From NCBI GenBank assembly GCA_023132875.1, contig JAGLXN010000017.1, positions 22,142 through 86,141 on the forward strand: 64,000 nucleotides of DNA. The letters are read 5' to 3'. Positions within the stretch are counted from its first letter, which is position 1. Each line of letters begins with the position of its first letter. This document shows, piece after piece, positions 1-63,532 of this stretch. Both the position numbers and the translations under genes were made by a program. A model generated the notes under the pieces. The model made no database searches. It was given only the letters and a program-made list of their open reading frames with translations, and was not told the DNA's origin. Origin of the DNA: Candidatus Parcubacteria bacterium (GTDB lineage Bacteria; Patescibacteriota; Minisyncoccia; JAHIHE01; JAGLIN01).

Positions 1-260
1 TTTCTAAGCGTATGTGATATTGGTTTTAGCTTTTTATTGTATTTCAGCATTGTTTATAAATTATTATTTGAAGAAACTTATTTGGAATTTTTGTTATATC
101 AGGTACGAGGAGAAAATCCCCCCAGCCCCCTTTTCCAAAGGGGGAGATATAGTTTTTTCCAAAACTATCTCTTTTAATTTCATAAACAAACGAATCTTCA
201 AATCCTTATCTTTCTTCTATAACTCTAACACACCCCCCAAAAAATACAAGATTTTAAGCA

Positions 261-6657: not shown

Positions 6658-6760
6658 TATTACTAACTTAATGGTATTCTAGAAATGATTTACACTGACG
6701 AAATTAAAACAATGCAACCGATTGTTTTAAATGGTGATTTAACAAAAATTAACTAAAATT

Positions 6761-8128: not shown

Positions 8129-9031
8129 ATGGACAATCCCCAAACCAAAATCTCTGAAAAACAAATTCAAATCAATGGTTTGAATATAAATTATAAAACA
8201 ATCGGCGATGGGAAAATCCCGATTGTTTTGTTGCATGGGTGGGGAGTGTCAAGCGATAAATATACAGAATTAATAAAAATATTATACTCAATACTCAATA
8301 CTCAATATTCAATATTCATCCTTGATCTTCCCGGATTTGGAAAAAGCGACGAACCGAAAGAAAACTGGAATTTGGATGATTATGTTGAGTTTGTGGATGA
8401 ATTTATTAAAAAGACAAGTAGAAAAGGCGGATTTGAGTTAGTTAAAAATATATTAGAGAAAATGCAAGAAGGCTCCACAGGGCTATCGCCACAATGGAGC
8501 CAACGATCTTCTTGTCGACAAAAACTAGTCTTAATCGGTCATTCGTTTGGCGGGAGAATTGCGATAAAATATGCTGTGAAATGCCCTGAAAAAATTGATA
8601 AATTGATTTTAACCGGAGCGGCGGGAATTAAGCGTAAATTGACCGTAAAACAGAAAATATTCTTTATTTTGGCAAAAATAGGAAAGAAAATTTTTTCTTT
8701 GCCGTTAATTAATAATTTAGAAAAATACGCGCAAAAAATATTATACAAAGCTACTAAGGAAAAAGATTATTACCAAGCCAGCCCGAGGATGAAAGAAGTA
8801 ATGAAAAATGTTTTAGATGAAGACTTAACAGATTATTTAGATAAAATAAAAAATCACACTTTATTAGTTTGGGGAAAAGAAGACAAAACCACGCCTTTAG
8901 CTGATGGAAAAATTATGAATGAGAAAATTGAGAATTCCAAGTTAATTGTGGTTGATGACGCTAATCATAGTTTGCCATATCAGAAGGCTGAGAAGTTTGT
9001 GAAAATTGTGGAAAAGTTTATAAAAAAATGA
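8129..9031 (+). CDS. Alpha/beta-hydrolase fold protein
   Basis: HGWG oxyanion region and GHSFGG nucleophile elbow; carries two in-frame inserts (a heptamer array and a GC-rich hairpin). Confidence 0.75.
   Translation: MDNPQTKISEKQIQINGLNINYKTIGDGKIPIVLLHGWGVSSDKYTELIKILYSILNTQYSIFILDLPGFGKSDEPKENWNLDDYVEFVDEFIKKTSRKGGFELVKNILEKMQEGSTGLSPQWSQRSSCRQKLVLIGHSFGGRIAIKYAVKCPEKIDKLILTGAAGIKRKLTVKQKIFFILAKIGKKIFSLPLINNLEKYAQKILYKATKEKDYYQASPRMKEVMKNVLDEDLTDYLDKIKNHTLLVWGKEDKTTPLADGKIMNEKIENSKLIVVDDANHSLPYQKAEKFVKIVEKFIKK
8286..8320 (+). repeat. In-frame heptanucleotide tandem array (ACTCAAT x3, ATTCAAT x2) inside the hydrolase ORF
   Basis: Seen directly; encodes ILYSILNTQYSIF. Confidence 0.7.
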
Positions 9032-9317: not shown

Positions 9318-10898
9318 ATGTCAATTATTTTAATTACAATATTAATATTATTTCTCATCAAAATTGTCCGTGATAGCTTGTTTTGTGTTTGGCTTTGGCA
9401 GGTGAAAGAATATCGGATAGATCGGATGAAATCTTATTTGAGAGACGAGAAAAGTATTATTTATAAAAATATTAATTATTTATTTGTTTTGATTTTATTT
9501 TTTATTTGCATTTTGGTTCCACAGCCATTCGGGACTATGGAACTAATGATTCTTATTTATTTAACGCTTTTATTTTTTACTTTTACTTTTTACCAAATTT
9601 TAATAGAAATAAAAGATAGAATTTTAAAAAGACCAAAGTTGACTTTTAAGATAATTCTAATATTTTTCATAGAAGCCACCTTTTATTTTTCGTTCTTTGT
9701 ATTTTACTGGATTCCCGCATTCGCGGGAATGACAAGACCTGCGGTCTTGATCCTACTATTACTATTTATTTATCTCATCACTCCTTTTTTAATTGCTACA
9801 ATTATTTTGTTAACAAATCCATTTTTTAATTTCCAAAAAAGAATAATAAAAAAAAAAGCCACCGAAAAAATGAAGGGATTGAAAAAAGTAAAAGTTATCG
9901 GTATTACGGGCAGTTACGGAAAGACAAGCACGAAAGAATTTCTATATGCGATATTGAACCAGAAATATAAAGTTGTAAAAACAGAAGGGAATAATAATAC
10001 GAATATCGGCGTGGCTTATACTGTTTTAAATAAAGTGAGTGATAAATATGATTATTTTATCTGTGAAATGGGCGCTTATAAAATTGGCGAAATCGCAGAA
10101 ATTTGTAAAATAGTAAAACCGGAAGTTGGAATTTTAACAGGAATTAACGAACAGCATATTGATTTATTTGGGTCTATTGAGAATACGGTTAAAGCGAAGT
10201 TTGAATTGATTGAGGCGTTGCCAGAGAACGGATTGGCGGTAATAAATGAAAAATTAAAAAATCAAAATGGAAAATTACAATTTAAAATTAAAAATGTTAA
10301 ATATTTTTCTTTGAACAATGTAAATGATATTAAAGTTTGTCAGGATTATGTAGGGTTTAATTATAAGAACTATAAATTTAAAACTAATCTTCTTGGCAAG
10401 CATTATATAGAAAATATTTTATCTGCTATAATGATAGCAGAATGTTTGGGAATAAGTTTGGATGAAATTGCAAAAGCAGTAGAGAAAATAAAACCGACTG
10501 AATTTATGATAAGAAAATTATACGGTCCAAATAATTCTATTTTTATTGATGACAGTTATAGCGCAAATCCTGATGGCGTAATCGCGGCGCTTGATTATTT
10601 AGATGAAGCGTATCAAGATTATAAAAAAATAATTGTTTTTCCAGGGATAATTGAATTGGGAAACAAGTCAAAAGAAGTGCATCAAAAATTATTTAGTAAA
10701 ATAGATAAAATTTGCGACTTTGCTTATATACTGAATACAGAATACAGAATACAGAATACTAATAACAAATTTGTTTTTGAGAAGGATTTTAATAAAGTGG
10801 CGAGAATGCTGAAAAATAATCTCAACGAAAAATCTGTTGTTCTTTTTGAAAGCCGGGGAGCGGGAGTGGCGATGGGAAAAGTAAAAATAGAAAAATAA
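9318..10898 (+). CDS. MurF-like Mur ligase with an N-terminal polytopic membrane domain of about 190 aa
   Basis: Mur ligase P-loop GITGSYGKTSTKE and C-terminal DDSYSANP signature; the N-terminus is strongly hydrophobic. Confidence 0.7.
   Translation: MSIILITILILFLIKIVRDSLFCVWLWQVKEYRIDRMKSYLRDEKSIIYKNINYLFVLILFFICILVPQPFGTMELMILIYLTLLFFTFTFYQILIEIKDRILKRPKLTFKIILIFFIEATFYFSFFVFYWIPAFAGMTRPAVLILLLLFIYLITPFLIATIILLTNPFFNFQKRIIKKKATEKMKGLKKVKVIGITGSYGKTSTKEFLYAILNQKYKVVKTEGNNNTNIGVAYTVLNKVSDKYDYFICEMGAYKIGEIAEICKIVKPEVGILTGINEQHIDLFGSIENTVKAKFELIEALPENGLAVINEKLKNQNGKLQFKIKNVKYFSLNNVNDIKVCQDYVGFNYKNYKFKTNLLGKHYIENILSAIMIAECLGISLDEIAKAVEKIKPTEFMIRKLYGPNNSIFIDDSYSANPDGVIAALDYLDEAYQDYKKIIVFPGIIELGNKSKEVHQKLFSKIDKICDFAYILNTEYRIQNTNNKFVFEKDFNKVARMLKNNLNEKSVVLFESRGAGVAMGKVKIEK
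9709..9753. repeat. Repeat family B hairpin (GGATTCCCGC-ATTC-GCGGGAATGAC plus AGACC-TGCG-GGTCT) inserted in-frame in the murF-like ORF
   Basis: Palindrome read directly; translates to IPAFAGMTRPAV. Confidence 0.6.
10733..10760 (+). repeat. In-frame heptamer tandem array (GAATACA x3, GAATACT) in the murF-like ORF
   Basis: Seen directly. Confidence 0.7.
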
Positions 10899-12490: not shown

Positions 12491-13519
12491 ATGAATATTA
12501 AAGAAATAACAAATAAATCCCAATGGGAAAATTTTGTTCAAGAAAACAAAGAAAGTACTTTTCTGCAATCTTGGAATTGGGGAGAATTCAATAGAAACAC
12601 AGGAGAAAAAATCTGGCGACTTGGAGTTTTTGACAATGAAGAACTTTTAGCAGTCGCGCTAGTTATAAAAGTAAACGCAAGGAGAGGATCATTTTTATTT
12701 GTTCCGCAGGGACCAATAATAAAGGTATTCAGTATTCAGTATTCAGTATTCAGTATATTAAATGAATTTTTTGATTATTTAAAAGATCTTGGAATAAAAG
12801 AAAGGGTTGGATTTATTCGCGTTAGTCCGATTTTAAAAAATACTGAAGAAAATTTGAATATTTTTGAAAAAGCAGGATTTAGAAACGCGCCGATTCATAT
12901 GATGCACCCAGAAACAACTTGGCTTTTAGATATTACAAAAAGCGAGGATGAAATTTTAAAAGGAATGAGAAAAACGCATAGAAATTTAATTCGTCGCGCG
13001 GCAAAAGAAGATGTTAAAATTATACAAAGCACGGATGAAGAATATCTTAAAGCGTTTTATGATATTCATATGGAAACTGTCCGGCGGCATAAATTTGTCC
13101 CGTTCCCCTATGATTATATAAAGAGCGAAACTGACGCGTTTAAAAACGACGATCAAATAAGCATATTTTCCGCAAAATATAAAGGTGAAATAATTTCATC
13201 CGCTATTATAATATTTTATGGAGAACAAGCTTTTTATCATCATGGCTCATCATCGTCAAAGTATTATAAAATTCCATCATCATATTTAAATCTTTGGGAA
13301 GCAATTAAGGAAGCAAAAAAAAGAGGAAAGAAGAAATTTAATTTTTACGGTATTGTTGAAAATAAGCCGAAACATCCTTGGGCTGGATTGTCAAAATTTA
13401 AAAAAGGATTTGGCGGACACCAAGAGGAACTATTACATTGCCAGGATTTGCCGTTGAATAGAAAATACGCGATTACATGGGTTGTTGAAACAATAAGGAA
13501 AGTTAGAAGAGGATATTGA
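12491..13519 (+). CDS. FemAB-family peptidoglycan interpeptide-bridge peptidyltransferase-like protein
   Basis: N-terminal QSW.WGEF signature region; GNAT-like size. Confidence 0.55.
   Translation: MNIKEITNKSQWENFVQENKESTFLQSWNWGEFNRNTGEKIWRLGVFDNEELLAVALVIKVNARRGSFLFVPQGPIIKVFSIQYSVFSILNEFFDYLKDLGIKERVGFIRVSPILKNTEENLNIFEKAGFRNAPIHMMHPETTWLLDITKSEDEILKGMRKTHRNLIRRAAKEDVKIIQSTDEEYLKAFYDIHMETVRRHKFVPFPYDYIKSETDAFKNDDQISIFSAKYKGEIISSAIIIFYGEQAFYHHGSSSSKYYKIPSSYLNLWEAIKEAKKRGKKKFNFYGIVENKPKHPWAGLSKFKKGFGGHQEELLHCQDLPLNRKYAITWVVETIRKVRRGY
12724..12751 (+). repeat. In-frame heptamer tandem array (GTATTCA x4) in the FemAB-like ORF
   Basis: Seen directly; encodes SIQYSVFSI. Confidence 0.7.
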
Positions 13520-13523
13520 TGGT

Positions 13524-13566
13524 GAATCAGGAATCAGGAATCAGGAATTATGAATTAGGAATTAAG
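13524..13566. repeat. GAAT-core heptamer array (GAATCAG x3, GAATTAT, GAATTAG, GAATTAA) right after the FemAB-like stop
   Basis: Seen directly. Confidence 0.7.
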
Positions 13567-13629
13567 AACTTTCTATTTTTATAAAAATGCTTAGATGTTT
13601 ATTAGAAATGTTTATTGTAATAGATAAAA

Positions 13630-14752: not shown

Positions 14753-16360
14753 TTGAAATTTAAAATAATTAAAATGAAAAAAATACGAACAAGATTTGCG
14801 CCAAGCCCGACGGGATATCTTCATGTTGGAAGTTTAAGAACTGCGTTATATAATTATCTGTTTGCCAAACATAATAACGGCGATTTTATCCTGCGTATTG
14901 AAGATACGGATAAAGCAAGGTTTGTGGAGGGTTCTATTGAAAATTTAGTGAAAATATTGGACCTAATCGAGCTGAAATATAATGAAGGTGTATTTGTAGA
15001 TAATGACGGAAAAATCTCTCAAAAAGGCAATTTTGGGCCATATATACAATCTGAAAGGCTAGAAATATATAAAAAATATGTTGACAAGCTAATAAAAAAT
15101 GATTATGCATATTTTTGCTTCTGTAGTCAAGAACGGCTGGAAGAAATGAGAAAAGAACAGCAAGCGCAAAAAATGGCTCCTAAGTATGACGGAAAGTGCA
15201 GGGGACTGGATAAAAAAGAAATTCAAAGGCTTCTCGATAAAAAAACTCCCTATGTTGTTCGTCTAAAAACTCCGCAGGAAGGATTTACCGAATTTGATGA
15301 TCTAGTTTATGGAAAAATAAAAATTGAAAACAAGGTAATTGATGATCAAGTTTTGATGAAGTCCGATGGATTTCCAACATATCATTTGGCAAATGTCATT
15401 GATGATCATTTAATGGAAATTTCACATGTCATTCGGGGAGAGGAATGGCTTCCATCAACTCCAAAGCATGTTATTTTATATAAAGCGTTTGGGTGGGATA
15501 TGCCAGAGTTTGCTCATCTACCACTTCTTCTTAATCCCGATAAAAGCAAATTGAGTAAACGTCAGGGCGATGTCGCAGTAGAAAATTATCTAAAAAAAGG
15601 ATATTTACCAGAAGCATTGTTAAACTTTATATTATTACTTGGTTGGAATCCTAAAACTGAAGAAGAAATTTTTTCATTTGATGAAATGATAAAAAGATTT
15701 GATTTGTCTGGAGTTAATAAAACGGGAGCTATTTTCAGTGTAGAAAAACTGGATTGGATAAATGGAACGTATATTCGTTGTATGCCGCTTGAAGAACTTA
15801 CCGAACTTTGTGTTCCATATTTGATTGAGGCAGGATTGATAGAAAGAATTATGAATTATGAATTAAGAATAAAGAATAAAATTCAAAATTCAAAATTCTC
15901 CTCCCGAGGCGGATCAGCCTTGGGCTGGAAGATTCAAAATTCTGATAAGGAAGTAGATTTTGATTATTTAAAAAAAGTTATTGCGCTTGAACAGGAACGG
16001 ATGAAGAAATTGAGTGAGATAGGGGAGCTGGTAAAATTTATCTTTGTTGATAAATTAGATTATGATAAAGATTTACTGGTATGGAAAAAAATGAGCTTTG
16101 AAGAGGTAAAAAATAATTTAGAATTAGCTTATGATGAATTAGAAAAAATAGACGAGAAAGATTTTGTGAAAAATAATTTGGAAGAAGTTTTGAGAAATTT
16201 AATGGGACGAGAGGGGATTAAGACGGGAGAATTGTTATGGCCCTTGCGAGTAGCTTTGACTGGCCTGAAAGGATCACCAGGACCGTTTGAAGTGGCAAGC
16301 GTTTTGGGAAAGGGAAAAGCTTTAAAGAGGATCAGAAAGGTAATTGAATTATTGAGATAA
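14753..16360 (+). CDS. gltX: Glutamyl-tRNA synthetase
   Basis: HIGH (PSPTGYLHVGS) and KMSKS-like (KLSKR) motifs; contains an in-frame repeat insertion. Confidence 0.9.
   Translation: MKFKIIKMKKIRTRFAPSPTGYLHVGSLRTALYNYLFAKHNNGDFILRIEDTDKARFVEGSIENLVKILDLIELKYNEGVFVDNDGKISQKGNFGPYIQSERLEIYKKYVDKLIKNDYAYFCFCSQERLEEMRKEQQAQKMAPKYDGKCRGLDKKEIQRLLDKKTPYVVRLKTPQEGFTEFDDLVYGKIKIENKVIDDQVLMKSDGFPTYHLANVIDDHLMEISHVIRGEEWLPSTPKHVILYKAFGWDMPEFAHLPLLLNPDKSKLSKRQGDVAVENYLKKGYLPEALLNFILLLGWNPKTEEEIFSFDEMIKRFDLSGVNKTGAIFSVEKLDWINGTYIRCMPLEELTELCVPYLIEAGLIERIMNYELRIKNKIQNSKFSSRGGSALGWKIQNSDKEVDFDYLKKVIALEQERMKKLSEIGELVKFIFVDKLDYDKDLLVWKKMSFEEVKNNLELAYDELEKIDEKDFVKNNLEEVLRNLMGREGIKTGELLWPLRVALTGLKGSPGPFEVASVLGKGKALKRIRKVIELLR
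15846..15948. mobile_element. Repeat family A element (GAAT heptamers plus GC-rich core CCTCCCGAGGCGGATCAGCCTTGGGCTGG) inserted in-frame in gltX
   Basis: Core matches the copies at 36568, 50467 and 63030; encodes MNYELRIKNKIQNSKFSSRGGSALGWKIQNS. Confidence 0.65.
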
Positions 16361-31875: not shown

Positions 31876-32012
31876 GTCATTGCGAGAAATAAAATTATCC
31901 GAAGGATAATTGAATGACGAAGCAATCCCGTAACTATGCTCCTCGCGTGTAGCCACGGGATTGCTTCGTCGCCTTCTTACTCGCTATGCTCGTTCGGGCT
32001 TCTCGCAATGAC
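31876..32012. mobile_element. MITE-like 137-bp element with 13-bp terminal inverted repeats GTCATTGCGAGAA/TTCTCGCAATGAC and an internal 15-bp inverted repeat
   Basis: Both inverted-repeat pairs seen directly; sits between map and adk. Confidence 0.65.
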
Positions 32013-33428: not shown

Positions 33429-33472
33429 AACAATATAGCAATGGAACAATACAACAATTTAAATTACAATTC
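33429..33472. repeat. Repeat family C (ACAATACAACAAT motif cluster)
   Basis: AACAATATAGCAATGGAACAATACAACAATTTAAATTACAATTC. Confidence 0.5.
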
Positions 33473-34738: not shown

Positions 34739-34744
34739 AGAATT

Positions 34745-34847
34745 ATATTGTTAAATTGTTGTATTGTTAAATTGTTGTATTGTTTTGCCTATTGCTTATT
34801 CAACGATTTAATCCAACAATACAGCAATGTAACAATATAACAATAAT
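34745..34847. repeat. Repeat family C, large palindromic copy (ATTGTTGTATTGTT x2 ... AACAATACAGCAATGTAACAATATAACAAT) upstream of secY
   Basis: Seen directly. Confidence 0.6.
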
Positions 34848-35285: not shown

Positions 35286-35373
35286 AAAATCATTTTAACA
35301 TATAAACATACTAACATTTTAACATACTAACATTTATTGTTAAAATATTTGATTAAGCAAATAATATAACAAT

Positions 35374-36545: not shown

Positions 36546-36615
36546 TTTTGTCATTGAAAATTGATTGCCGGTCCAAGGCTGGTCCGCCTCGGGCGGAAAA
36601 ATTAGAAATTGAAAA
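36546..36615. mobile_element. Repeat family A copy (TTTTGTCATTGAAAATTGATTG-CCGGTCCAAGGCTGGTCCGCCTCGGGCGG-AAAAATTAGAAATT) in the rplR-rplF spacer
   Basis: Near-identical over about 70 nt to the copy at 50443..50512. Confidence 0.65.
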
Positions 36616-36616
36616 T

Positions 36617-37165
36617 TTACTCTCCTGTTCCCGCGACTTTCTTTCCAACTTTCCTTCTTACATGCTCTCCTAAATACCTTATCCCTTTTCCTTTATATGG
36701 TTCTGGCTTCTTTTTACTTCTTATATCAGCAGCAATTTGTCCTACAAGCTGCTTATTTATTCCAGCTATGGTAATAATATTTTTTTCAACATTAAATTCT
36801 ATTCCTTTTGGAGCTTTAAATATTACTAAATGTGAAAAGCCAAGACTAAGTTCCAGATCATTTCCTTTTTGAACTACCTTATACCCAACTCCTTGTATTT
36901 CAAGTTTTTTTTCAAATCCTTTTTCCGCTCCTTCAATCATATTAGCAATTAATGTTCTAGAAAGTCCCCAAATAGCATAATTTTTTTTTGTATTATTTTT
37001 TACAGATACTATAATATGATTGTCTTTAATCTCAATAGACATTTTTGAATCAATTTTATCAGTAAGCTCTCCTTTGGGCCCCTTGACAATAACTTCATTA
37101 TCTTTACTAACAGAAAATGTGACTCCTGATGGTATGTTTATTGGCTGTTTTCCTATTTTACTCAT
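36617..37165 (-). CDS. rplF: 50S ribosomal protein L6
   Basis: Conserved L6 sequence, tandem alpha/beta domains. Confidence 0.9.
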   Translation of the reverse strand: MSKIGKQPINIPSGVTFSVSKDNEVIVKGPKGELTDKIDSKMSIEIKDNHIIVSVKNNTKKNYAIWGLSRTLIANMIEGAEKGFEKKLEIQGVGYKVVQKGNDLELSLGFSHLVIFKAPKGIEFNVEKNIITIAGINKQLVGQIAADIRSKKKPEPYKGKGIRYLGEHVRRKVGKKVAGTGE

Positions 37166-37211
37166 AATTTAAAATGTTTATATGTTTATATGATTATATG
37201 ATTATATGATT

Positions 37212-37607: not shown

Positions 37608-37705
37608 GAATATTGAATTATGAATTTAGAATTACGAATTACGAATTACGAATCGACGATATTTTACAATCTTCATGATTCATAATTCATAATTCATAAT
37701 TCATC
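37608..37705. repeat. GAAT-core heptamer arrays in inverted orientation (GAATTAC x3 ... ATAATTC x3) in the rpsH-rpsN spacer
   Basis: Seen directly. Confidence 0.7.
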
Positions 37706-39984: not shown

Positions 39985-40395
39985 TTATTGCTCCTTGGAA
40001 ATAAATTTTGTTTTTATGGGAAGTTTATGGCTAGCTCTTCTCATCGCTTCTTTTGCCACTTTCTCTTCAACTCCATCCATTTCAAAAATTATTTTTCCCG
40101 GTTTTACCACTGCCGCAAAATGATCTAAACTTCCCTTTCCACTACCCATGGGAACTTCTGCCGGTTTTCTGGTAATTGGCTTGTTTGGAAAAATTCTTAT
40201 CCATATTTTTCCGCCTCTTTGAACATATTTTGTCATTGCTCTTCTTGCCGCTTCAATCTGACGGCTCGTAATCCAAGAAGTTTCAAGTGATTTCAAAGCA
40301 AAAGATCCAAAAGAAATACTGGCTCCTCTATGCGCTTTTCCTCGCATTCTGCCTTTTTGTTGTTTTCTGTGTTTTACTTTTTTCGGCATTAACAT
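39985..40395 (-). CDS. rplP: 50S ribosomal protein L16
   Basis: [17 protein letters not shown]-terminus. Confidence 0.9.
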
Positions 40396-40421
40396 AAAAT
40401 CATTTTAACATATAAACATAA

Positions 40422-41932: not shown

Positions 41933-42052
41933 TTATTGTTATATTGTTCTATTGCTAAATTGTTATGCATGGCACATATTCACAATTATATTATTATATT
42001 ACAACTATTGAATTACTATGCATAACAATAGAACAATAGAGCAATACAACAA
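41933..42052. repeat. Repeat family C large palindrome (TTATTGTTATATTGTTCTATTGC ... GCATAACAATAGAACAATAGAGCAATACAACAA) between rpsS and rplB
   Basis: Seen directly. Confidence 0.6.
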
Positions 42053-42053
42053 T

Positions 42054-45087: not shown

Positions 45088-45178
45088 AAATTGTTATATT
45101 GTCAAGTTATTATGCATAGCATAATAACACGCAATGTTACCTGACAATATAACAATTTAGCAATTTGACAATTTAATA
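45088..45178. repeat. Repeat family C palindrome (TTGTTATATTGTCAAG ... CCTGACAATATAACAA) just downstream of rpsJ
   Basis: Seen directly. Confidence 0.55.
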
Positions 45179-47837: not shown

Positions 47838-49811
47838 CTATCTAACATTTTCCCCTTTTAAATATAAGCCCAATTCATAGTCCGTAACAATTATTATATC
47901 TTCCCATTTATAGCCGTTGGAGATAAATACATCGGCGCTTGTTATCCATCTTTTATTTCCGTTTTCTATTAAATATACTTTGGGATCGGAGCCTTTTAAA
48001 AGTTTTTTGTCAAAATTGAAATCAGAACTTGTAACATCTTTTCCGTTTGAATACGAATTCAATTCATAATCCGTAACAATTATTATGTCTTCCCATTTAT
48101 AGCCATTTGAAATAAACACGGCAGGGCTTGTTATCCATCTTTTATTTTCGTTTTCTATTAAATACACTTCAGGACTTGATCCTTTTATTAAACTCCCGTC
48201 TGGCTTTAAATCAAAACTTGCTTTTATATTTTCTCCGTTGGGATATAATTCAAGCTCTAAATCTGTAACAATTACTATATCTTCCCATTTATAGCCATTT
48301 GAAATAAACACGGCAGGGCTTGTTATCCATCTTTTATTTTCGTTTTCTATTAAATAGACCCTGCTATCTTTCAGCGATTTTAGAAGAGAATCATTTTTAT
48401 ATTTATTGCTTTTAGCAATTTCTGCAGAAATAGAAAAAGAATATTTATTAATATTATTTCCAAAACCGGAAGTTTTTTTATGGCTTATTGGAATTATTGT
48501 AACAGAAGAGATATTTCTGTCCGAGCAGGAAACATAAAAATCAGAATTTTGCTTATCGTCCAAATTCAATTCGCCGATTTTTTTTGTTCCGTCCTCATAA
48601 GATATAACATAAGAAACAGAAAATTGCCCTATATCTTGTCCGTCAAAATTAATTTTAATTTTATTTTCATTTGCGCAATTTTTTTCCGCTATATCAAGTT
48701 CATAATATCCATTACTCCAATCTTTAATAGAATCATTTATATTTATTGTAACGACGGAGTTTAATTCATAAACATCTTTTGGCTGGATGTGAAAATTTTC
48801 ATAATTAAGATTTTTATTTTGATAGCTATATTTGCTATCCAATGATGTTCCGTTTATATAATTAGTTATAACCCAGTCTTTAAATACAGATTGAAAGGTG
48901 TCATTTTTATAATATAAATCTGATAACGCCTTATTAATGCTTTGAATTCCAACTTTATTATTATCTACCATTCTTTTAAATATTTCTTTCCCGAAACGAT
49001 CGGCTAAGTACTGGGAAAATAAGTTAACGGAAGAATAATCGTATATTTTATTCTGCCACTCCGTAAGCGAATCAACCGGATCAATTTCAAAATTTTTAAC
49101 TCTTGCCCTTAAATTGCTGCCCATATAATCATCGTCATAGCCTATCGCCGTAGAAGCATATTCCGACCTTGCTTCATTCAGCCATATATCGTCTGTAATA
49201 TTTCTTAATTTAGTTTTATGATACCAAGTGATCATATGCTGAAATTCATGCGCGAGAAAACTTTTTATTCTATTATCGCCTATAAAAGATATATTCAAAT
49301 AAACCATCTCTCTTTCGTTGCTTCTTTCGCCGGCTACTTCATCTTTTCTGTATTCATCGCTTGGATTGAAATATCCCCCGATATTTTCTTTTGTCTTTGT
49401 AAAAAGAATTGTAATTTTGCTGTCATTGTCAATCCCTGGATTCCATTCATATCCAAATGCTTCTCTTGTTTTTGGGTACACCGTATTGTCAAAATCTAAA
49501 ACTAAAGAATTTAAATGCGAATTAAATTCTAATTTGGAATTTCTTGATAAATTATTATAATAATCGTCTTCAACATAAAAATATGCGTTTACTCCGATTT
49601 TTTTTAAAGTCGCCGTTATTTCCAAACGCTCGCTGGAATCATAAGAAAGATCAACTAAAAATACTTTATTTTCTTCAAGCTCATTCGCTTTTGCGCTTGG
49701 AATTGCAGTTAATGAAATAATAAATAATAAAACAATACAAAAAAACAGCTTTAATCCTAAAACCGCCAACTCACCCCTCCTGTTAATATTTCTATTTTTT
49801 ATAAATCTCAT
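47838..49811 (-). CDS. Secreted/membrane-anchored putative zinc metalloprotease (HExxH) with three C-terminal tandem repeats of about 62 aa
   Basis: N-terminal hydrophobic anchor; HEFQHMITWYH motif; 3 x VYLIENxNKRWITSxxVFISNGYKWEDIxIVTDxEL. Confidence 0.6.
   Translation of the reverse strand: MRFIKNRNINRRGELAVLGLKLFFCIVLLFIISLTAIPSAKANELEENKVFLVDLSYDSSERLEITATLKKIGVNAYFYVEDDYYNNLSRNSKLEFNSHLNSLVLDFDNTVYPKTREAFGYEWNPGIDNDSKITILFTKTKENIGGYFNPSDEYRKDEVAGERSNEREMVYLNISFIGDNRIKSFLAHEFQHMITWYHKTKLRNITDDIWLNEARSEYASTAIGYDDDYMGSNLRARVKNFEIDPVDSLTEWQNKIYDYSSVNLFSQYLADRFGKEIFKRMVDNNKVGIQSINKALSDLYYKNDTFQSVFKDWVITNYINGTSLDSKYSYQNKNLNYENFHIQPKDVYELNSVVTININDSIKDWSNGYYELDIAEKNCANENKIKINFDGQDIGQFSVSYVISYEDGTKKIGELNLDDKQNSDFYVSCSDRNISSVTIIPISHKKTSGFGNNINKYSFSISAEIAKSNKYKNDSLLKSLKDSRVYLIENENKRWITSPAVFISNGYKWEDIVIVTDLELELYPNGENIKASFDLKPDGSLIKGSSPEVYLIENENKRWITSPAVFISNGYKWEDIIIVTDYELNSYSNGKDVTSSDFNFDKKLLKGSDPKVYLIENGNKRWITSADVFISNGYKWEDIIIVTDYELGLYLKGENVR
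47871..48360. repeat. Three tandem direct repeats of about 188 bp (high nucleotide identity) encoding the C-terminal protein repeats
   Basis: CAATTCATAGTCCGTAACAATTATTATATCTTCCCATTTATAGCC ... recurs at about 47871, 48058 and 48249. Confidence 0.8.
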
Positions 49812-50037
49812 CTATTTTTTATTTTTTGAGACATTTAGAAGTATAGTGTCTTTCAATGCGACCGCATGGAAAAATGCTATATCTAATTTTTATTCATTTT
49901 CATTTCTAACAATCTTGATAAAGAAGGATATTTATAAATAACTTTTGTTTTTAAGTAAACTTTTTTCGTATCTTCAAATGTAAACTTTTGCGGTTTCATA
50001 ATTCATTATTCATTATTCTAAATTCAAGATTCAATCA

Positions 50038-50113
50038 TGGAGCGGGTAACGGGAATCGAACCCGTGTCTTCAGCTTGGAAGGCTGACATAATAAGCCACT
50101 ATACGATACCCGC
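50038..50113 (-). tRNA. tRNA-Gly (anticodon UCC), CCA encoded
   Basis: Manual fold: acceptor GCGGGTA/TACCCGC, anticodon stem TCAGC/GCTGA with loop CTTCCAA, T-arm ACGGG-TTCGATT-CCCGT, 3' CCA. Confidence 0.85.
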
Positions 50114-50184
50114 GGACACCTGTCTATTATAACAAATATATAGAAATTATCAATACGCCCAAAACAATTAAATGTAGATATCGA

Positions 50185-50305
50185 TTCTATGGACAATTTT
50201 CAATTTTCAATTTCTAATTTTTATTGAATTTCTAATTTCTTAATGATTAAATCCAAAACTCAAAGCACCAAATTCCAAATAAATTCAAACATCAAAATTC
50301 TAAAC
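50185..50305. repeat. Degenerate heptamer array (CAATTTT x2, CAATTTC, TAATTTT ...) between tRNA-Gly and the ATPase gene
   Basis: Seen directly. Confidence 0.5.
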
Positions 50306-50442
50306 TATTAAGACTTGCGCGTTTCACAATTCGGAGCGTCCTAACTATTTTAAACTTTGTTTTGAATTTGTTATTTTGGTCATTGTAATTTATTTGTTAT
50401 TTGTGATTTTGAATTTATGATTTATCCAGTTGTTTAAAAATT

Positions 50443-50512
50443 TAGTCATTGGAAATTGATTGTCAACCCAAGGCTGATCCGCCTCGGGCGGAAAAATTAA
50501 AAATTTTATAAT
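50443..50512. mobile_element. Repeat family A copy (TTTAGTCATTGGAAATTGATTG-TCAACCCAAGGCTGATCCGCCTCGGGCGG-AAAAATTAAAAATT) downstream of the ATPase gene
   Basis: About 70-nt match to 36546..36615. Confidence 0.65.
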
Positions 50513-50533: not shown

Positions 50534-53047
50534 TTATAAATTTTGTTTTCTAATGTTGCTCTGAACTGTTGGCTTTACCCTAACCTCCGATCTTTCCAAT
50601 ATCTCCCTCTCTATAATTTCTCTATTTTTGCCAAATTTCAGAGTTGAAAGCTGTTTTATGGCTTCTGCAACTTCCGCGCTTCCTTTTTGCGGCGGATAGG
50701 TTGCCATATTAAATCCTTGGCTTATTGTGCCTCTTATCATCATCTTAATATAAGCGTTAAAATTATCAATATTTATCAGATCCTGTTCGTTAAAAACAGG
50801 CTTGAATTGTTTTGCCATAAACTCAGCGTCTTCCGGTCCAATTCGAAAAGAAATCATTGTTCCAACATTTCCAAATACAGATTTTTGTATTTCTTCAGGA
50901 AGCTGTCCCAAGAACTGATGAGCAATATTCAGCGATAGCCTGTATTTTCTCGCTTCTGAAAGAATTGTTGAGATGCTGTCAGTCGTGAAATTCTGAAATT
51001 CGTCAATATAGAAATAAAAATCTTTTCTTTCTTCCTGAGGCATATCAGTTCTACTGAGCGATGCGACTAAAATTTTTCCAACTATCACAAGACCAAGCAA
51101 ATAGGCGTTCATTTCTCCGATCTTTCCTTTTGAAAGATTGACAAGCAGAATTTTTTTGTTATCCATAATTTCCCTGAAATTGATAGAGCTTTTCTGCTGT
51201 CCGATAATAGGACGCATCGTATCATTAGAAATAAATTGTGTCAGCTTGCTTGTTATATAAGGAACCATATTAGCCAGCGCGGCTTCTCCTCCAGCCTTTT
51301 GAGCTTCTTTTTCCCAGAAATTTTTCACGGTAAAGTTTTCACATTTTGACAATTTGTATTTTCTAAATTCTTCATCGGCAAGCACTTTTGAAATTTCAAT
51401 TAAAGTCGAGCCTGACGCTGGATCATCCATAATTAAAAGCATCGCATTTCTCATATATTGCTCAAACATAGGACCGCCTGTTGCTTTTAAGTCATAAAGC
51501 TTGTCAAATATCTTTATCATTTCATTTATAACGAAAGTTTTTTGTTCCGGATAATTTTCATCATATTCAAGAAGATTTAATCCCATTGGTTTTTGAACAT
51601 TTGACGGATCAAACAGGACCACGTCTTCGGCACGCTCTTTCGGCACGCAGCCTAAAGCGTCTTCCACAAGATCGCCATGCGGATCAATAACGCAGAGCCC
51701 TTCTCCATTTTGTATATCCTGCCTTATTAACTCTCCTAAAAATCCAGATTTACCCGTTCCAGTTTGTCCAATTATATACATATGCCTTCTGCGGTCTTCT
51801 TTCTCTATTTTAATTATTCTATCTTCTCCTCTATGCGTATTATGCCCCAAAATTAAGCCTTCATTTGGAATATCAGAAGGCGCGGAAGCTTGTTTTGCTT
51901 TCAGCCATTTTACTTGCGGAGTAGCGGTCGTAGAAATTGGAAAATGAAACAAACTTGCCAGTTCCTCCGTATTTAAAATTATTTTTCTTTTCTTTTCAAA
52001 ATTTCTAAATATAAAATTATATATGGTTCTGTTTAAAAACCCCGCTTTATTTAAAAATGTTTCTTTAACATTTAGCGAATTAGAATCCGGCAAATTAAAC
52101 TGAGAAAAAGAATTTTCAAGCTCTTTTAACAGAGTTTCGGCTTTTTCTTTTGTTCCAGCTGAAGTAACAAGGCGCACATTGATTTCAAAGCCAATTTTGG
52201 TTGATTTTGCCTCTACCGCTTTCATAACTTCTTCCTGCGATGGCGTTAAATTTACTTTTACCTCCTCTTTTTGCTGATCTTCCGCTGATTTTCCTCCCGC
52301 GCTTATTATTCCTATAAATTCTTTTAATACTTTAACTGGCAAAGAAGGTTTTCCCTGTTCGCCGAATCCTTTGCCTTTTTGCATTAGTTTCATTCTTTCT
52401 TTACTCTCGCTCTGCCAAGAATTGCCGGATGGTTTTATCACAAATTGGAGAGCCGCTCCTTCTCCGATTGGAATCTTGCTAAGCGCGTTTGTCATGCTTG
52501 AAAGCGGATCGGCTTCAAGATGCTGATATGTTTTTATCGGAAAAATGTCATTTCTTTTTAGCATCATATATGAAGCCGCTGATCCTCCATCTGGCACAAA
52601 AATATTATAGTCTTCTATCTGCGTTATTTCCGCGTCGGCATAAAAACTGTGAATTTGTTTTTCTATGATAGATTGAAATTTTTTTGGAACCGAAACATAG
52701 AAAAATATCTCATTGCTGTCAATCGGAGTGGCAATTTCAAAAGACAAATAAAATGGACCATAAATGATTTTCTTAAGCATTTCTTCCCTGATATTGCTCA
52801 AGCTCGCGAAAAGCTGCTCCATTACGGAAATATTCTCTTTTTCTTTTTCGCTTTTATTTTGCGGCTGATCTTCTATTATTCTTGGAACAGAGACTTGCAA
52901 CACGATCATATTAAGAGATCTTGTGATTTTTCCAGTGCTAGAAAGCCTCATTTTTACATAAATAAACACAACTATAAAAATGACCAGTGCGATTGCAAGA
53001 TCTAAAAGACCAATTTCGATTATATAATTGCTTATAAATAGTTCCAT
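50534..53047 (-). CDS. Membrane-anchored VirB4/VirD4(TraG)-family type IV secretion/conjugation-like AAA ATPase
   Basis: N-terminal TM; Walker A IIGQTGTGKSGF; DPHGD; Walker B FYFYIDEFQNF; C-terminal ARKYRLSLNIAHQFLGQL resembles the T4CP/VirB4 C-terminal Q-x-x-x-Q motif. Confidence 0.65.
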   Translation of the reverse strand: MELFISNYIIEIGLLDLAIALVIFIVVFIYVKMRLSSTGKITRSLNMIVLQVSVPRIIEDQPQNKSEKEKENISVMEQLFASLSNIREEMLKKIIYGPFYLSFEIATPIDSNEIFFYVSVPKKFQSIIEKQIHSFYADAEITQIEDYNIFVPDGGSAASYMMLKRNDIFPIKTYQHLEADPLSSMTNALSKIPIGEGAALQFVIKPSGNSWQSESKERMKLMQKGKGFGEQGKPSLPVKVLKEFIGIISAGGKSAEDQQKEEVKVNLTPSQEEVMKAVEAKSTKIGFEINVRLVTSAGTKEKAETLLKELENSFSQFNLPDSNSLNVKETFLNKAGFLNRTIYNFIFRNFEKKRKIILNTEELASLFHFPISTTATPQVKWLKAKQASAPSDIPNEGLILGHNTHRGEDRIIKIEKEDRRRHMYIIGQTGTGKSGFLGELIRQDIQNGEGLCVIDPHGDLVEDALGCVPKERAEDVVLFDPSNVQKPMGLNLLEYDENYPEQKTFVINEMIKIFDKLYDLKATGGPMFEQYMRNAMLLIMDDPASGSTLIEISKVLADEEFRKYKLSKCENFTVKNFWEKEAQKAGGEAALANMVPYITSKLTQFISNDTMRPIIGQQKSSINFREIMDNKKILLVNLSKGKIGEMNAYLLGLVIVGKILVASLSRTDMPQEERKDFYFYIDEFQNFTTDSISTILSEARKYRLSLNIAHQFLGQLPEEIQKSVFGNVGTMISFRIGPEDAEFMAKQFKPVFNEQDLINIDNFNAYIKMMIRGTISQGFNMATYPPQKGSAEVAEAIKQLSTLKFGKNREIIEREILERSEVRVKPTVQSNIRKQNL

Positions 53048-62692: not shown

Positions 62693-63532
62693 TTATTTTT
62701 TCAAAACCATCCACCCAAATTTTATCGTCGCGTTATAAATTCGTTTTATTCTTCGCGGATTCAAGATCAATCGCCACAGCCATTCCAATCCCAATTTTTG
62801 GAAAATCAATGGCGCGCGTTTGACTTCACCAGATATAAAATCAAACGATCCGCCGACTCCAATTGCCAGCTTTACGCTTGGCAATTTTTTTAAGTTCTCA
62901 TAAATCCATTCTTCCTGTTTAGGAACGCCAAACGCAACGAGTATTATATCTGGTTTTGTTCTATTTATCCGCTGAATTAATTCTTCATTTAACTTATGAA
63001 ACTTATTATTATAAGAATTTGGAATTTTTCCTCCCAAGGCGGACCAGCCTTTGGCTGGGAATTTGGAATTTTGAGATTTATTTGGTATTTGGTATTTGGT
63101 ATTTGGTATTTCAAACCACATTCCCTCCTCCGCGCCCACGATATTTAAACGATCATACTTTTTAGATAAAACTTTTGCGGCTTCTCCCGCTATCCCTTCT
63201 CCCGCTCCTAATAAATATATCTTTTTACCTTTTATAAGTTCAGATTCACAGATTTTATAAATTAAATTAATACCCGTAATTTTTTCGGGCAATGTTTTAT
63301 GATTTAAAAATTTGTTCGCAAATAAAATTCCTGTTCCATCCGGAATAATAATATCGGCTTCATTTATAATTTTTTTAAAGTGATTATTTTTTCGAGCTTC
63401 AACAACCATTTCTGGGTTTAGTGTTACAATATAATGTTGTTGATCCGATAATAAAAAACTCTTGATTTTTTCAAGAACTTCTTTTGTTGTAATCTTATTT
63501 ACTTTTACATCTAATATTTTTTCATAATTCAT
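62693..63532 (-). CDS. WecB/TagA/CpsF-family glycosyltransferase carrying an in-frame family A repeat insertion
   Basis: N-terminal WecB/TagA-like region IIIPDGTGI; insertion encodes EIPNTKYQIPNKSQNSKFPAKGWSALGGKIPNS. Confidence 0.65.
   Translation of the reverse strand: MNYEKILDVKVNKITTKEVLEKIKSFLLSDQQHYIVTLNPEMVVEARKNNHFKKIINEADIIIPDGTGILFANKFLNHKTLPEKITGINLIYKICESELIKGKKIYLLGAGEGIAGEAAKVLSKKYDRLNIVGAEEGMWFEIPNTKYQIPNKSQNSKFPAKGWSALGGKIPNSYNNKFHKLNEELIQRINRTKPDIILVAFGVPKQEEWIYENLKKLPSVKLAIGVGGSFDFISGEVKRAPLIFQKLGLEWLWRLILNPRRIKRIYNATIKFGWMVLKK
63015..63112. mobile_element. Repeat family A element (core CCTCCCAAGGCGGACCAGCCTTTGGCTGGG plus ATTTGGT x4 heptamers) in-frame inside the wecB-like gene
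   Basis: Core matches 15899, 36568 and 50467. Confidence 0.65.

What the first reader, a model, noticed from the sequence alone, without database searches (positions are those of the whole stretch)
63015..63112. Second in-frame family A element, in the WecB/TagA-like transferase; palindrome symmetry yields the same peptide in either orientation
The core CCTCCCAAGGCGGACCAGCCTTTGGCTGGG and (ATTTGGT)x4 lie inside ORF 62693..63532. Read on the gene's strand it encodes ...PAKGWSALGGK..., while the gltX copy, inserted in the opposite relative orientation, encodes ...SSRGGSALGWK.... The near-palindromic core therefore gives a similar G-(W)-SALG-(W)-K peptide in both orientations. That would be a built-in tolerance mechanism for insertion into ORFs.
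Basis: seen in the sequence. Interest (0 to 1): 0.65.

Follow-up and report, generated by a model that had tools for sequence, protein, structure and literature searches.

The report
30-base double-hairpin insert inside genes
A 30-base GC-rich DNA element made of two small hairpins has inserted, codon-aligned, into a glycosyltransferase gene of an ultra-small (CPR/Patescibacteria) bacterium, adding ten amino acids to a floppy surface loop; the same element is scattered through many CPR genomes, and its similar peptide on both strands follows from its geometry, with no evidence here that it is an adaptation.

Summary
At 63029-63058 a discrete 30-nt unit (TCCTCCCAAGGCGGACCAGCCTTTGGCTGG) lies inside the WecG/TagA gene, next to a perfect (TATTTGG)x4.7 array. 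The gltX copy (15899-15928) has the opposite orientation relative to its gene. Orthologs about 80% identical lack exactly these 30 nt and show no target duplication.

The unit is a dimer of two 15-nt hairpins of the form TC(C/A)GCC-NNN-GGC(G/T)GA. Compensatory changes support both stems. Each hairpin is five codons, so a codon-aligned insertion reads [S/P]-A-x-G-[G/W] twice on either strand.

"Built-in tolerance" is only partly supported:
- A length of 30 nt and the lack of target duplication keep the reading frame.
- Six open frames are expected by chance (48% of shuffles).
- The T-variant carries TGA and is filtered out of ORFs (5/38 inside versus 47/84 outside).

The exact core occurs in more than 116 genome contigs, mostly CPR, and in none of 2.9 M viral contigs. 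About 31% of copies lie in ORFs, including housekeeping genes. Copies are enriched next to tRNA genes.

The best reading is a selfish miniature hairpin element. It behaves like Rickettsia palindromic elements and resembles mitochondrial double-hairpin elements. The mobilising machinery is unknown.

The parts
63029..63058 (+). 30-nt double-hairpin unit 'A4' (TCCTCCCAAGGCGGA + CCAGCCTTTGGCTGG). It lies on the strand opposite the WecG gene and is translated as PAKGWSALGG (residues 159-168). It is a phase-0 insertion.
   Evidence: (clean 30-nt indel versus L117/L118)
63015..63028 (.). Left flank GAATTTGGAATTTT. This is part of a pre-existing heptamer array and is not a target-site duplication.
   Evidence: direct repeat, spacing 44 = 14+30. 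One search shows both heptamer dimers already adjacent in core-less orthologs.
63059..63072 (.). Right flank GAATTTGGAATTTT, from the same pre-existing heptamer array.
63079..63111 (.). (TATTTGG)x4.7 perfect tandem array, encoding IPNTKYQIPN on the gene strand. It is polymorphic: L117 has (GAATTTC)n at this place.
62693..63532 (-). Host gene, a WecG/TagA/CpsF-family glycosyltransferase (279 aa). Residues about 143-182 form a lineage-specific variable segment.
   Evidence: TagA 7mpk aligns to residues 6-142 and 183-275; pLDDT below 50 for residues 141-174
15899..15928 (+). 30-nt unit 'A1' on the gltX gene strand, translated as SSRGGSALGW (residues 383-392), phase 0. It is a T-variant whose last base is G, giving TGG instead of TGA.
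   Evidence: (absent from 83%-identical ortholog P0122)
15843..15898 (.). Heptamer arrays (GAATTAT / AAAGAAT / AAAATTC) upstream of A1 in gltX. (AAAATTC)3 reads KIQNSKF.
14753..16360 (+). Host gene gltX (glutamyl-tRNA synthetase). The insert lies between the catalytic and anticodon-binding domains.
   Evidence: (domains at 10-335 and 401-531)
36568..36597 (-). 30-nt unit 'A2', intergenic between the ribosomal protein L6 and L18 genes. The 3' stem is partly decayed (GGACCGG).
   Evidence: No terminator-like site was found.
50463..50492 (-). 30-nt unit 'A3', intergenic, just downstream of the TraG/VirD4-like gene 50534..53047 (-). It is a T-variant.

Best explanation
The feature is one copy of a small, non-coding, selfish DNA element of exactly 30 nt, widespread in Patescibacteria (CPR). 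The element is two adjacent 15-nt GC-rich hairpins: TCCGCC-CRA-GGCGGA followed by YCAGCC-TTK-GGCTGR.

It inserts as a block without duplicating its target, usually after a T-rich site, and in either orientation. It is found between genes, next to or inside tRNA-like sequences, and inside protein-coding genes.

Because it is 30 nt long and adds no duplication, it never shifts the reading frame. Because it is GC-rich, it rarely contains stop codons. ORF insertions therefore survive when they fall in permissive loops and in a stop-free frame.

In the WecG gene it landed codon-aligned inside an AT-rich heptamer microsatellite that already formed a disordered surface loop. It is translated as PAKGWSALGG.

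Shown: the discrete 30-nt indel, the hairpin covariation, the recurrence, the filtering of stop-bearing variants, and the loop location. Inferred: that it is mobilised in trans by an unidentified hairpin-recognising activity, and that copies have no function for the host gene.
For: 1. Clean 30-nt presence/absence. The window has AAAATTCCAAATTC[30 nt]AAAATTCCAAATTC, while orthologs L118 and L117 have the two halves abutting, with no target duplication. The same applies in gltX versus P0122 and in Tgt versus the solved enzyme: IGF-SAQGGPALGW-DGY is an exact 10-residue gap.
2. Three independent hits in one WecG hotspot: the window (reverse, C-variant, phase 0), L122 (forward, T-variant, phase 2) and L123 (reverse, 7 nt away, decayed by 6 substitutions).
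3. The exact 24-nt core occurs in more than 116 genome contigs with unrelated flanks and sharp borders.
4. The two-hairpin structure is supported: 96.4% of cells paired, 5 pairs with double compensatory changes, 0/500 shuffles as good. Positions 14 and 28, of which position 28 was outside the search pattern, co-vary: C-G 70, T-A 50, T-G 2, C-A 0.
5. ORF hosts are real housekeeping genes: PolA, MetRS, ArgRS, Mur ligase, TsaD x3, GalT, an aminotransferase class-V enzyme (Pfam PF00266) and Tgt.
6. The TGA-bearing T-variant is depleted in ORFs (Fisher p=8.6e-6) and phase-0 insertions are preferred, so copies are translated and filtered by selection.
7. There is no orientation bias relative to flanking genes: tandem same 23 / opposite 21, convergent 11 / divergent 9.
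8. The insert lies in a segment with pLDDT 33-38, between a strand and a helix of an otherwise confident model (pLDDT 85, pTM 0.81). This segment replaces a 2-residue connection in TagA 7mpk.
Against: - No transposase or other mobilising gene was identified. No parent element with separated hairpins was found in 0.78 Mb of loci.
- Insertion cannot formally be told apart from precise deletion at any single site.
- The apparent near-identity across lineages is partly an ascertainment effect, because copies were retrieved with an exact pattern.
- 33 of 116 host contigs carry non-CPR labels that I did not verify.
- The strong association with tRNA genes and tRNA-end fragments is not explained by a simple random-insertion model.
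Confidence: 0.72

Rival explanations
1. The codon-compatible palindrome is an evolved adaptation of the element. Its length, its 15-nt (5-codon) hairpin period and its stop-free, Gly/Ser/Ala-rich reading on both strands were selected so that insertions into ORFs are tolerated.
For: - The unit is 30 nt and each hairpin is 15 nt, both multiples of 3.
- The C-variant is open in all six frames.
- The phase-0 frames, which give small flexible residues, are the most used (20 of 38).
- 33 of 38 ORF copies are the stop-free C-variant.
Against: - 48% of shuffled 30-mers of the same composition are open in six frames, and a length divisible by 3 has a prior of 1/3.
- The T-variant with TGA in both phase-0 frames makes up 56% of the copies outside ORFs (47/84), so the family as such is not stop-free.
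- The basic and proline-rich frames are also found in ORFs.
- Only about 31% of copies are in ORFs.
- ORF copies decay (L123).
- All of this is what a selection filter on random insertions would give.
Confidence: 0.13
2. The core is a host-functional cis element kept by selection. Candidates are a binding site for a conserved CPR protein, a DNA-uptake sequence for natural competence, or an RNA hairpin that stabilises or terminates transcripts. ORF copies would be a side effect.
For: - The sequence is highly conserved, with structure-preserving covariation, across many CPR lineages.
- Copies A2 and A3 sit just downstream of genes.
- It is absent from 2.9 M viral contigs.
Against: - There is no orientation bias relative to transcription and no avoidance of divergent (promoter) spacers.
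- No hairpin plus T-run terminator was found, and no Rfam family matches.
- Density is only 4 per 64 kb here. From my own knowledge, uptake sequences occur at roughly one per kb.
- Presence and absence differ between relatives that are 80-95% identical.
- Copies decay (A2 in the window; L123).
Confidence: 0.1
3. The 30 nt are removed from RNA (a minimal intron-like or processed element), so ORF and tRNA-associated copies are not expressed as extra residues.
For: - Patescibacteria are unusually rich in introns in tRNA and rRNA genes (PMC13011429).
- Copies occur within tRNA-like sequences at D-, anticodon- and T-loop positions.
Against: - If the unit were removed, neither frame nor stop codons would matter. 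Yet stop-bearing T-variants are depleted in ORFs, and only one such case was seen in their stop frames (L017, where the TGA ends the upstream open stretch); codon phase is also biased.
- The tRNA-like sequences that carry it are fragments or decayed copies beside an intact tRNA. ARAGORN finds no tRNA after removing the unit, with one marginal exception (L065).
- 30 nt is too small for any known self-splicing RNA (own knowledge).
Confidence: 0.03
4. It is an artefact: adapter or contaminant sequence, an assembly chimera, or independent local origin by slippage.
For: None beyond the short length and very high similarity of copies.
Against: - Copies are found in assemblies from many projects and are always embedded in unique flanks.
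- ORF copies are codon-compatible with the gene continuing on both sides.
- Variation is structured, with compensatory changes.
- Decayed copies exist.
Confidence: 0.01

Closest known systems
Rickettsia palindromic elements (RPEs)
   Same: Both are palindromic repeats of a reduced, AT-rich bacterial genome that insert in-frame into unrelated housekeeping genes and are translated. The reported compatibility of RPEs with protein fold (PMC10969869) matches the disordered-loop location seen here.
   Different: RPEs are about 150 bp, occur in ten families and are restricted to Rickettsia (PMC10969869). This unit is 30 nt, consists of two minimal hairpins, is found across many CPR lineages and is used in all reading frames. 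I made no sequence comparison with RPEs.
Mitochondrial double-hairpin elements (Allomyces DHEs), sponge repetitive hairpin-forming elements, and yeast mitochondrial GC clusters
   Same: - All are short GC-rich elements in AT-rich genomes that fold into one or two stem-loops.
- They are dispersed in spacers and sometimes lie inside rRNA or protein genes.
- Substitutions concentrate in loops or are compensatory (PMC4478555, PMC2800124).
- Allomyces DHEs, like this unit, lack flanking duplications (as summarised in PMC2800124).
- The mobilising machinery is unknown in all cases.
   Different: Those elements are organellar, lineage-specific and variable in length (yeast GC42 is 42 nt with an AG target duplication; PMC4478555). 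This one is bacterial, has a fixed length of 30 nt with no duplication, and spans many CPR lineages. Homology was not tested and is not expected.
REP / BIME elements mobilised by RAYT transposases
   Same: Both are 20-40-nt GC-rich imperfect palindromes in many copies, with conserved borders and hairpin-preserving variation (PMC3733652).
   Different: REPs are extragenic and carry a GTAG or CGTC tag at one end (PMC3733652). This unit starts with T-CCGCC, about 31% of copies are inside ORFs, and no RAYT gene was looked for or found.
MITEs and IS200/IS605-derived palindrome-associated elements
   Same: They are non-autonomous, structured and dispersed. IS200/IS605 relatives also insert without target duplication next to a short specific sequence (own knowledge).
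   Different: MITEs have terminal inverted repeats and target duplications and are usually 50 bp or longer (PMC10969869). Minimal IS200/IS605 ends are much longer than 30 nt (own knowledge). No transposase link was established here.

Membership tests
Rickettsia palindromic elements (RPE) | In-frame insertion into unrelated protein-coding genes, translated with the host protein | tested here: met
   38 of 122 copies lie within long ORFs. The hosts checked by Pfam or PDB comparison are housekeeping genes. Clean 10-aa gaps are seen in WecG, GltX and Tgt.
Rickettsia palindromic elements (RPE) | Element of about 100-150 bp belonging to one of the described RPE sequence families of Rickettsia | tested here: not met
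   The unit is exactly 30 nt. The hosts are Patescibacteria. I made no sequence comparison with RPE consensus sequences.
REP/BIME (RAYT-associated) | Extragenic location | tested here: not met
   About 31% of copies are inside ORFs.
REP/BIME (RAYT-associated) | Conserved GTAG or CGTC tetranucleotide at one end (PMC3733652) | tested here: not met
   The logo shows T at -1 and T-rich -4..-2, followed by CCGCC. The 3' end is GGCTGR. There is no GTAG or CGTC.
REP/BIME (RAYT-associated) | A RAYT (Y1 transposase) gene in the same genomes, often flanked by the repeats | not tested
   No gene-content survey of host genomes was possible with 8-kb loci.
MITE | Target-site duplication flanking the element | tested here: not met
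   Filled versus empty sites differ by exactly the 30 nt. tRNA-fragment comparisons give the same result. The 14-nt direct repeats at A4 pre-exist in empty orthologs.
MITE | Terminal inverted repeats derived from a parent IS | tested here: inconclusive
   The two hairpins are internally palindromic and similar to each other, so the ends are weakly inverted (TC.GCC...GGC.GA). No parent IS was found in the loci.
Mitochondrial double-hairpin elements / GC clusters | Short GC-rich sequence in an AT-rich genome folding into two stem-loops maintained by compensatory change | tested here: met
   The window is 31% GC and the unit about 70% GC. The two-hairpin model has 5 pairs with double changes and beats all 500 shuffles, while the single long hairpin is no better than shuffles.
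Mitochondrial double-hairpin elements / GC clusters | Organellar (mitochondrial) host and lineage-specific sequence | tested here: not met
   The host is a bacterial chromosome carrying a ribosomal protein operon, aaRS genes and similar, and the element is found across many CPR lineages.
DNA uptake sequences (DUS/USS type) | Very high genomic density (about one per kb; own knowledge) and accumulation by point mutation | tested here: not met
   There are 4 copies in 64 kb. Copies appear as discrete 30-nt blocks.
Intrinsic terminator / Rfam RNA family | Hairpin followed by a T-run on the sense strand, or a match to a curated covariance model | tested here: not met
   No terminator-like site at A2. 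Rfam gives only tRNAs at gathering score and chance hits at E up to 10. There is no orientation bias.

The most novel reading that the evidence does not exclude
This is a previously undescribed family of 30-nt double-hairpin mobile DNA found across many CPR lineages. As far as I know it would be the smallest discrete mobile unit reported in bacteria. It would move without target duplication through an unidentified hairpin-specific activity, preferentially into exposed loops of tRNA-gene copies and AT-rich microsatellites. It would repeatedly add decapeptide loops to essential proteins, and may also drive duplication, truncation or chimerism of tRNA genes.
Probability: 0.4. Interest if true: 0.72.

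Novelty: new variant of a known kind. Interest (0 to 1): 0.55.

Why it matters
CPR/Patescibacteria have tiny, streamlined genomes, so selfish DNA inside essential genes is unexpected there. Examples here include aminoacyl-tRNA synthetases, PolA, TsaD and Tgt, where the insert sits inside the conserved IGF|DGY motif.

If the family is confirmed, it would matter in several ways:
- It gives a simple, recognisable marker for lineage-specific 10-aa insertions that confuse alignments, annotation and structure prediction of CPR proteins.
- It offers a natural experiment on which protein loops tolerate insertions.
- It gives a handle for finding a hairpin-specific DNA-mobilising activity in organisms that cannot yet be manipulated genetically.
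- It extends the Rickettsia in-frame selfish-DNA phenomenon and the mitochondrial double-hairpin phenomenon to a third, very large group of reduced AT-rich genomes.

That would point to a general link between genome reduction, AT-richness and GC-rich hairpin parasites.

Tried and rejected
1. tRNA insertion or intron idea. Flanks of several copies looked like tRNA halves, but ARAGORN finds no tRNA spanning the site after removing the unit, apart from one marginal hit in L065. The copies are fragments or decayed tandem copies beside an intact tRNA.
2. RNA/retro origin of those fragments. L050's fragment carries a CCA that the adjacent gene lacks. Three further T-loop cases from metagenomes (L119-L121) have no CCA, so this is probably chance.
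3. Single long hairpin. It is thermodynamically favoured for the consensus (DNA -13.5, RNA -25 kcal/mol). Covariation rejects it: 401 of 500 shuffles do as well.
4. The flanking 14-nt direct repeat as a target duplication. Rejected because empty orthologs already have both copies.
5. The shared flanking peptides (QNSKF...KIQNS) as evidence of a larger composite element. They are simply (AAAATTC)n read through. In gltX they derive from expansion of a native segment. Only about 8% of cores elsewhere have period-7 flanks.
6. Parent element with the two hairpins separated by an ORF. None was found in 0.78 Mb.
7. Phage origin. There are 0 hits in viral contigs.
8. Rfam. No family matches.
9. Literature. 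Searches for the sequence string and for CPR combined with palindromic, MITE, REP or hairpin terms found no prior description. Absence from this library is not proof of novelty.
Full report
**1. Observation.** The window is AT-rich (31% GC). The quoted core occurs once exactly, at 63030-63059. It lies in ORF 62693..63532 on the minus strand, a WecG/TagA/CpsF-family glycosyltransferase (PF03808, E=6.8e-54). Tandem Repeats Finder gives a perfect period-7 array at 63079-63111 (4.7 copies).

A scan for GC-rich islands found four related cores:
- A1 at 15899-15928, on the gene strand of gltX.
- A2 at 36568-36597, between the L6 and L18 genes.
- A3 at 50463-50492, downstream of a TraG/VirD4-like gene.
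- A4 at 63029-63058, in WecG, on the strand opposite the gene.

The coordinates were verified.

**2. It is a discrete 30-nt insertion.** Pfam's 168-position WecG profile spans 208 residues of this protein. The solved TagA structure 7mpk aligns to residues 6-142 and 183-275, leaving about 40 extra residues.

In an alignment of 28 homologs, the 95%-identical P0001 has the same insert. The 78-80%-identical P0002-P0004 keep the flanking low-complexity peptide but lack exactly PAKGWSALGG. Distant homologs lack the whole segment.

At the DNA level the window reads AAAATTCCAAATTC[30 nt]AAAATTCCAAATTC. The syntenic L117 and L118 have the two halves abutting. The indel is therefore exactly 30 nt (T+29 in core orientation), with no target duplication. 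The 14-nt direct repeats that flank it are pre-existing heptamer units.

The gltX copy behaves the same way. The window and P0121 read ...NSKF-SSRGGSALGW-KIQNS..., whereas the 83%-identical P0122 reads ...NSKFKIQNS.... The flanking peptide shared by the two genes is simply (AAAATTC)n read through (AAA ATT CAA AAT TCA AAA TTC = KIQNSKF). In gltX this array is an expansion of a native segment.

**3. Anatomy.** The flanks are unrelated and the borders sharp. T at -1 is present in 118 of 122 copies, and GGCTGR continues beyond the search pattern.

Position 14 (Y) co-varies with position 28 (R), and position 28 was not part of the pattern: C-G 70, T-A 50, T-G 2, C-A 0. On 33 distinct variants the two-hairpin model gives 96.4% paired cells and 5 pairs with changes on both sides, and no shuffle out of 500 does as well. 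Examples of compensated variants are L053 (TGCGCC-CAG-GGCGCA CCAGCT-TTG-AGCTGG) and L070 (TCGGCC-AGA-GGCCGA).

The single long hairpin is the minimum-free-energy fold of the consensus. It is nevertheless no better than shuffles (401 of 500), so I reject it.

With T1 pairing to A15, the unit is a dimer of two 15-nt hairpins of one form, TC(C/A)GCC-NNN-GGC(G/T)GA.

**4. Why both orientations give the same peptide.** Each hairpin is five codons. In a codon-aligned (phase-0) insertion, codon 1 is the reverse complement of codon 5, codon 2 is the reverse complement of codon 4, and codon 3 is the loop. The opposite strand therefore reads the same pentapeptide apart from the loop codon.

The forward reading is TCC GCC CGA GGC GGA | CCA GCC TTG GGC TGG = SARGG PALGW. 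The reverse reading is CCA GCC CAA GGC TGG | TCC GCC TCG GGC GGA = PAQGW SASGG. Both window copies are phase-0. This is a necessary property of any near-palindrome of 3n nt inserted at the same codon phase.

**5. Test of "built-in tolerance".** Of 122 copies, 38 lie in long open frames. The hosts I checked are real housekeeping genes: Wzy_C, PolA, GalT, MetRS, Mur ligase, ArgRS, a class-V aminotransferase and three TsaD genes. In Tgt the alignment to structure 6yfw shows IGF-SAQGGPALGW-DGY against IGF----------DGY.

Frame use is F0 4, F1 3, F2 13, R0 7, R1 9, R2 2. This corresponds to phase 0/1/2 = 20/12/6 (p=0.02).

Having six open frames is not remarkable, since 48% of shuffles of the 30-mer show it. 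The T-variant (TCA...TGA) has a stop in both phase-0 frames. It makes up 56% of the copies outside ORFs (47/84) and only 13% of ORF copies (5/38) (Fisher p=8.6e-6). It never occurs in frame R0. It occurs once in F2, in the window's gltX copy, whose last base is G (TGG).

In one case (L017) the element's TGA ends the upstream open stretch, although the same frame is open again for 119 codons downstream, so this may be a broken gene. The in-ORF copy in L123 has decayed by six substitutions.

Together these results show that copies are translated and then filtered by selection. The features that truly preserve the frame are the 30-nt length and the lack of target duplication. An evolved design is not needed to explain the data, although it is not excluded.

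**6. Recurrence and targets.** The same ~40-nt heptamer region of WecG was hit at least three times:
- The window: reverse orientation, C-variant, phase 0.
- L122/P0010: forward orientation, T-variant, phase 2, giving FPPEANQPWADN.
- L123/P0005: reverse orientation, 7 nt away, decayed.

TsaD has a similar hotspot in three loci. Period-7 arrays flank about 8% of cores against 0.5% of random positions. The heptamer context is therefore a favoured target but not part of the element.

Copies are enriched within 70 nt of tRNA genes: 21 of 118 against 3.5 expected (p=6e-11).

**7. Location in the protein.** An AlphaFold2 model built on the 28-sequence alignment is confident overall (mean pLDDT 85, pTM 0.81). 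The exception is residues 141-174 (pLDDT 33-38), a loop between strand 130-136 and helix 172-192. The decapeptide occupies residues 159-168. In GltX and MetRS the insert lies between the catalytic and anticodon-binding domains.

**8. Function.** Copies outside ORFs show no orientation bias relative to neighbouring genes (tandem same 23 / opposite 21) and no avoidance of divergent spacers (convergent 11 / divergent 9). No terminator-like site was found at A2. No Rfam family matches. There were no hits in 2.9 M viral contigs.

This argues against a strand-specific RNA role and against phage carriage. It fits a selfish DNA element. No mobilising gene or parent element was found. The mechanism of movement is inferred, not shown.

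**9. Distribution.** Of the 116 host contigs, 59 carry explicit CPR names: Patescibacteria, Moran-, Pacei-, Uhr-, Falkow-, Magasanik-, Kuenen-, Nomura-, Wolfe-, Wildermuth- and Taylor-bacteria. A further 16 are labelled Saccharibacteria. Another 33 carry third-party-assembly labels such as Gammaproteobacteria or Bdellovibrionales, which I could not verify. Five are unnamed and three are labelled with other phyla. Homolog names place the window itself in the Pacebacteria/Paceibacteria.

One caveat applies. Copies were retrieved with an exact pattern, so conservation within the 24 pattern positions is by construction. The borders, the 14-28 covariation and the fuzzy search (134 copies within 6 mismatches, 35 distinct sequences) are free of that bias.

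**10. Comparison with known elements.**
- In behaviour it is closest to Rickettsia palindromic elements, which insert in-frame into housekeeping genes (PMC10969869).
- In anatomy it is closest to mitochondrial GC clusters and double-hairpin elements: GC-rich hairpins in AT-rich genomes, with structure-preserving variation and, for Allomyces, no flanking duplication (PMC4478555, PMC2800124).
- It fails defining features of REP elements, which are extragenic and carry a GTAG or CGTC tag (PMC3733652).
- It fails defining features of MITEs, which have target duplications and are larger.
- It fails the features expected of uptake sequences (density) and terminators.

Literature searches for the sequence and for CPR with repeat-related terms found no prior description. 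I class it as a new variant of a known kind.

**11. Unexplained.** Many tRNA-adjacent copies sit inside a partial copy of the neighbouring tRNA's own end. The partial copy covers positions about 1-22 or about 49-76 and is interrupted at D-, anticodon- or T-loop positions. It lies 40-60 nt outside the intact gene. Its acceptor-stem sequence matches its own neighbouring tRNA in different organisms.

Some of these are clearly decayed or chimeric tandem tRNA copies (L038, L086, L065, L014, L121). Others lose similarity abruptly. An origin from mature tRNA is not supported, because three further cases show no CCA.

Noticed in passing
L044, L116, L085, L107, L057, L074, L055, L038, L004 (5' type); L008, L050, L119, L120, L121 (3' type); L006, L047, L073 (anticodon-loop type): Cores sit inside a partial copy of the neighbouring tRNA's own end. 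An example is GGGCACATAGCT-[30 nt]-CAGTTGGTAG, lying 50 nt upstream of an intact tRNA-Lys that starts with the same 22 nt. The acceptor-stem part matches its own tRNA in different organisms. Cores are about 6-fold enriched within 70 nt of tRNA genes (21/118, p=6e-11). L121 looks like a chimera of two tRNA-Thr copies joined at the core. The anticodon-loop type was read by eye only. The mechanism is unexplained.
   Followed up: partly
window 8284-8318, 10728-10759, 12725-12756 (also 15843-15898 and 63079-63111): Perfect or near-perfect AT-rich heptamer arrays (ATACTCA, ATACAGA, GTATTCA and similar) lie inside at least five ORFs of this window. They are read through as low-complexity peptides such as ILNTQYSI, ILNTEYRIQNTNNKF and VFSIQYSVFSI. 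Other arrays are intergenic (13523-13568, 37615-37704, 49995-50221).
   Followed up: partly
WecG homologs P0006, P0007, P0008, P0014, P0016, P0017, P0050 (alignment A1, columns about 100-160 and 270-310): The same variable loop, and a second loop of WecG, carry quite different inserted peptides in other CPR lineages. Examples are LRQAIKRIGKVCGYRKKILNPPAGGQ, ECHSELVSESTKII and SPPDKGACLSGRQGWGV. This suggests further families of small inserts that use the same permissive sites.
   Followed up: no
L053, L080, L095 (TsaD site GHIYANFI...), L079 (second TsaD site): TsaD is hit by the core in four loci. Three hits are at the same loop, in different frames (LRPRRTSLGLA twice, SPPEADQPWAG once), with heptamer-type flanks. 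This is a second insertion hotspot like the one in WecG.
   Followed up: partly
L025 positions about 6042-6110: Two tandem copies of the unit, 38 nt apart start to start, lie inside one ORF. They are read in two different frames (PAQGWSASGG, then QPKAGPPRAE).
   Followed up: no
L017 around 6698-6727: A T-variant copy in the phase-0 frame has its TGA where a 168-codon open stretch ends. The same frame is open again for 119 codons downstream, so this is either a broken gene or an element-donated stop.
   Followed up: no
window 36598-36640 and 50420-50462; L001, L013, L114: A2 and A3 share a conserved extension, CAATCAATTT(T/C)CAATGAC, next to the core. The same motif occurs beside cores in other genomes, and in L001 it lies on the other side in inverted orientation. 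Either the core flips relative to this flank, or the flank is a separate repeat that is a favoured target.
   Followed up: partly
window 47881-48356: A 189-nt tandem repeat (2.5 copies, 82% match) lies inside the 657-aa ORF 47838..49811 (-).
   Followed up: no
window 33429-33458, 34743-34845, 35291-35336, 37174-37211, 40391-40420, 41934-42053, 45144-45176: Period-8 AT-rich arrays (AACAATAT / TTATATTG type) recur in spacers between ribosomal protein genes, often as oppositely oriented pairs.
   Followed up: no
window 106-144 and 31922-31964: There are other GC-rich palindromes unrelated to the core: CCCCCTTTTCCAAAGGGGG and GCAATCCCGT...ACGGGATTGC. They may belong to further small hairpin-repeat families.
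   Followed up: no
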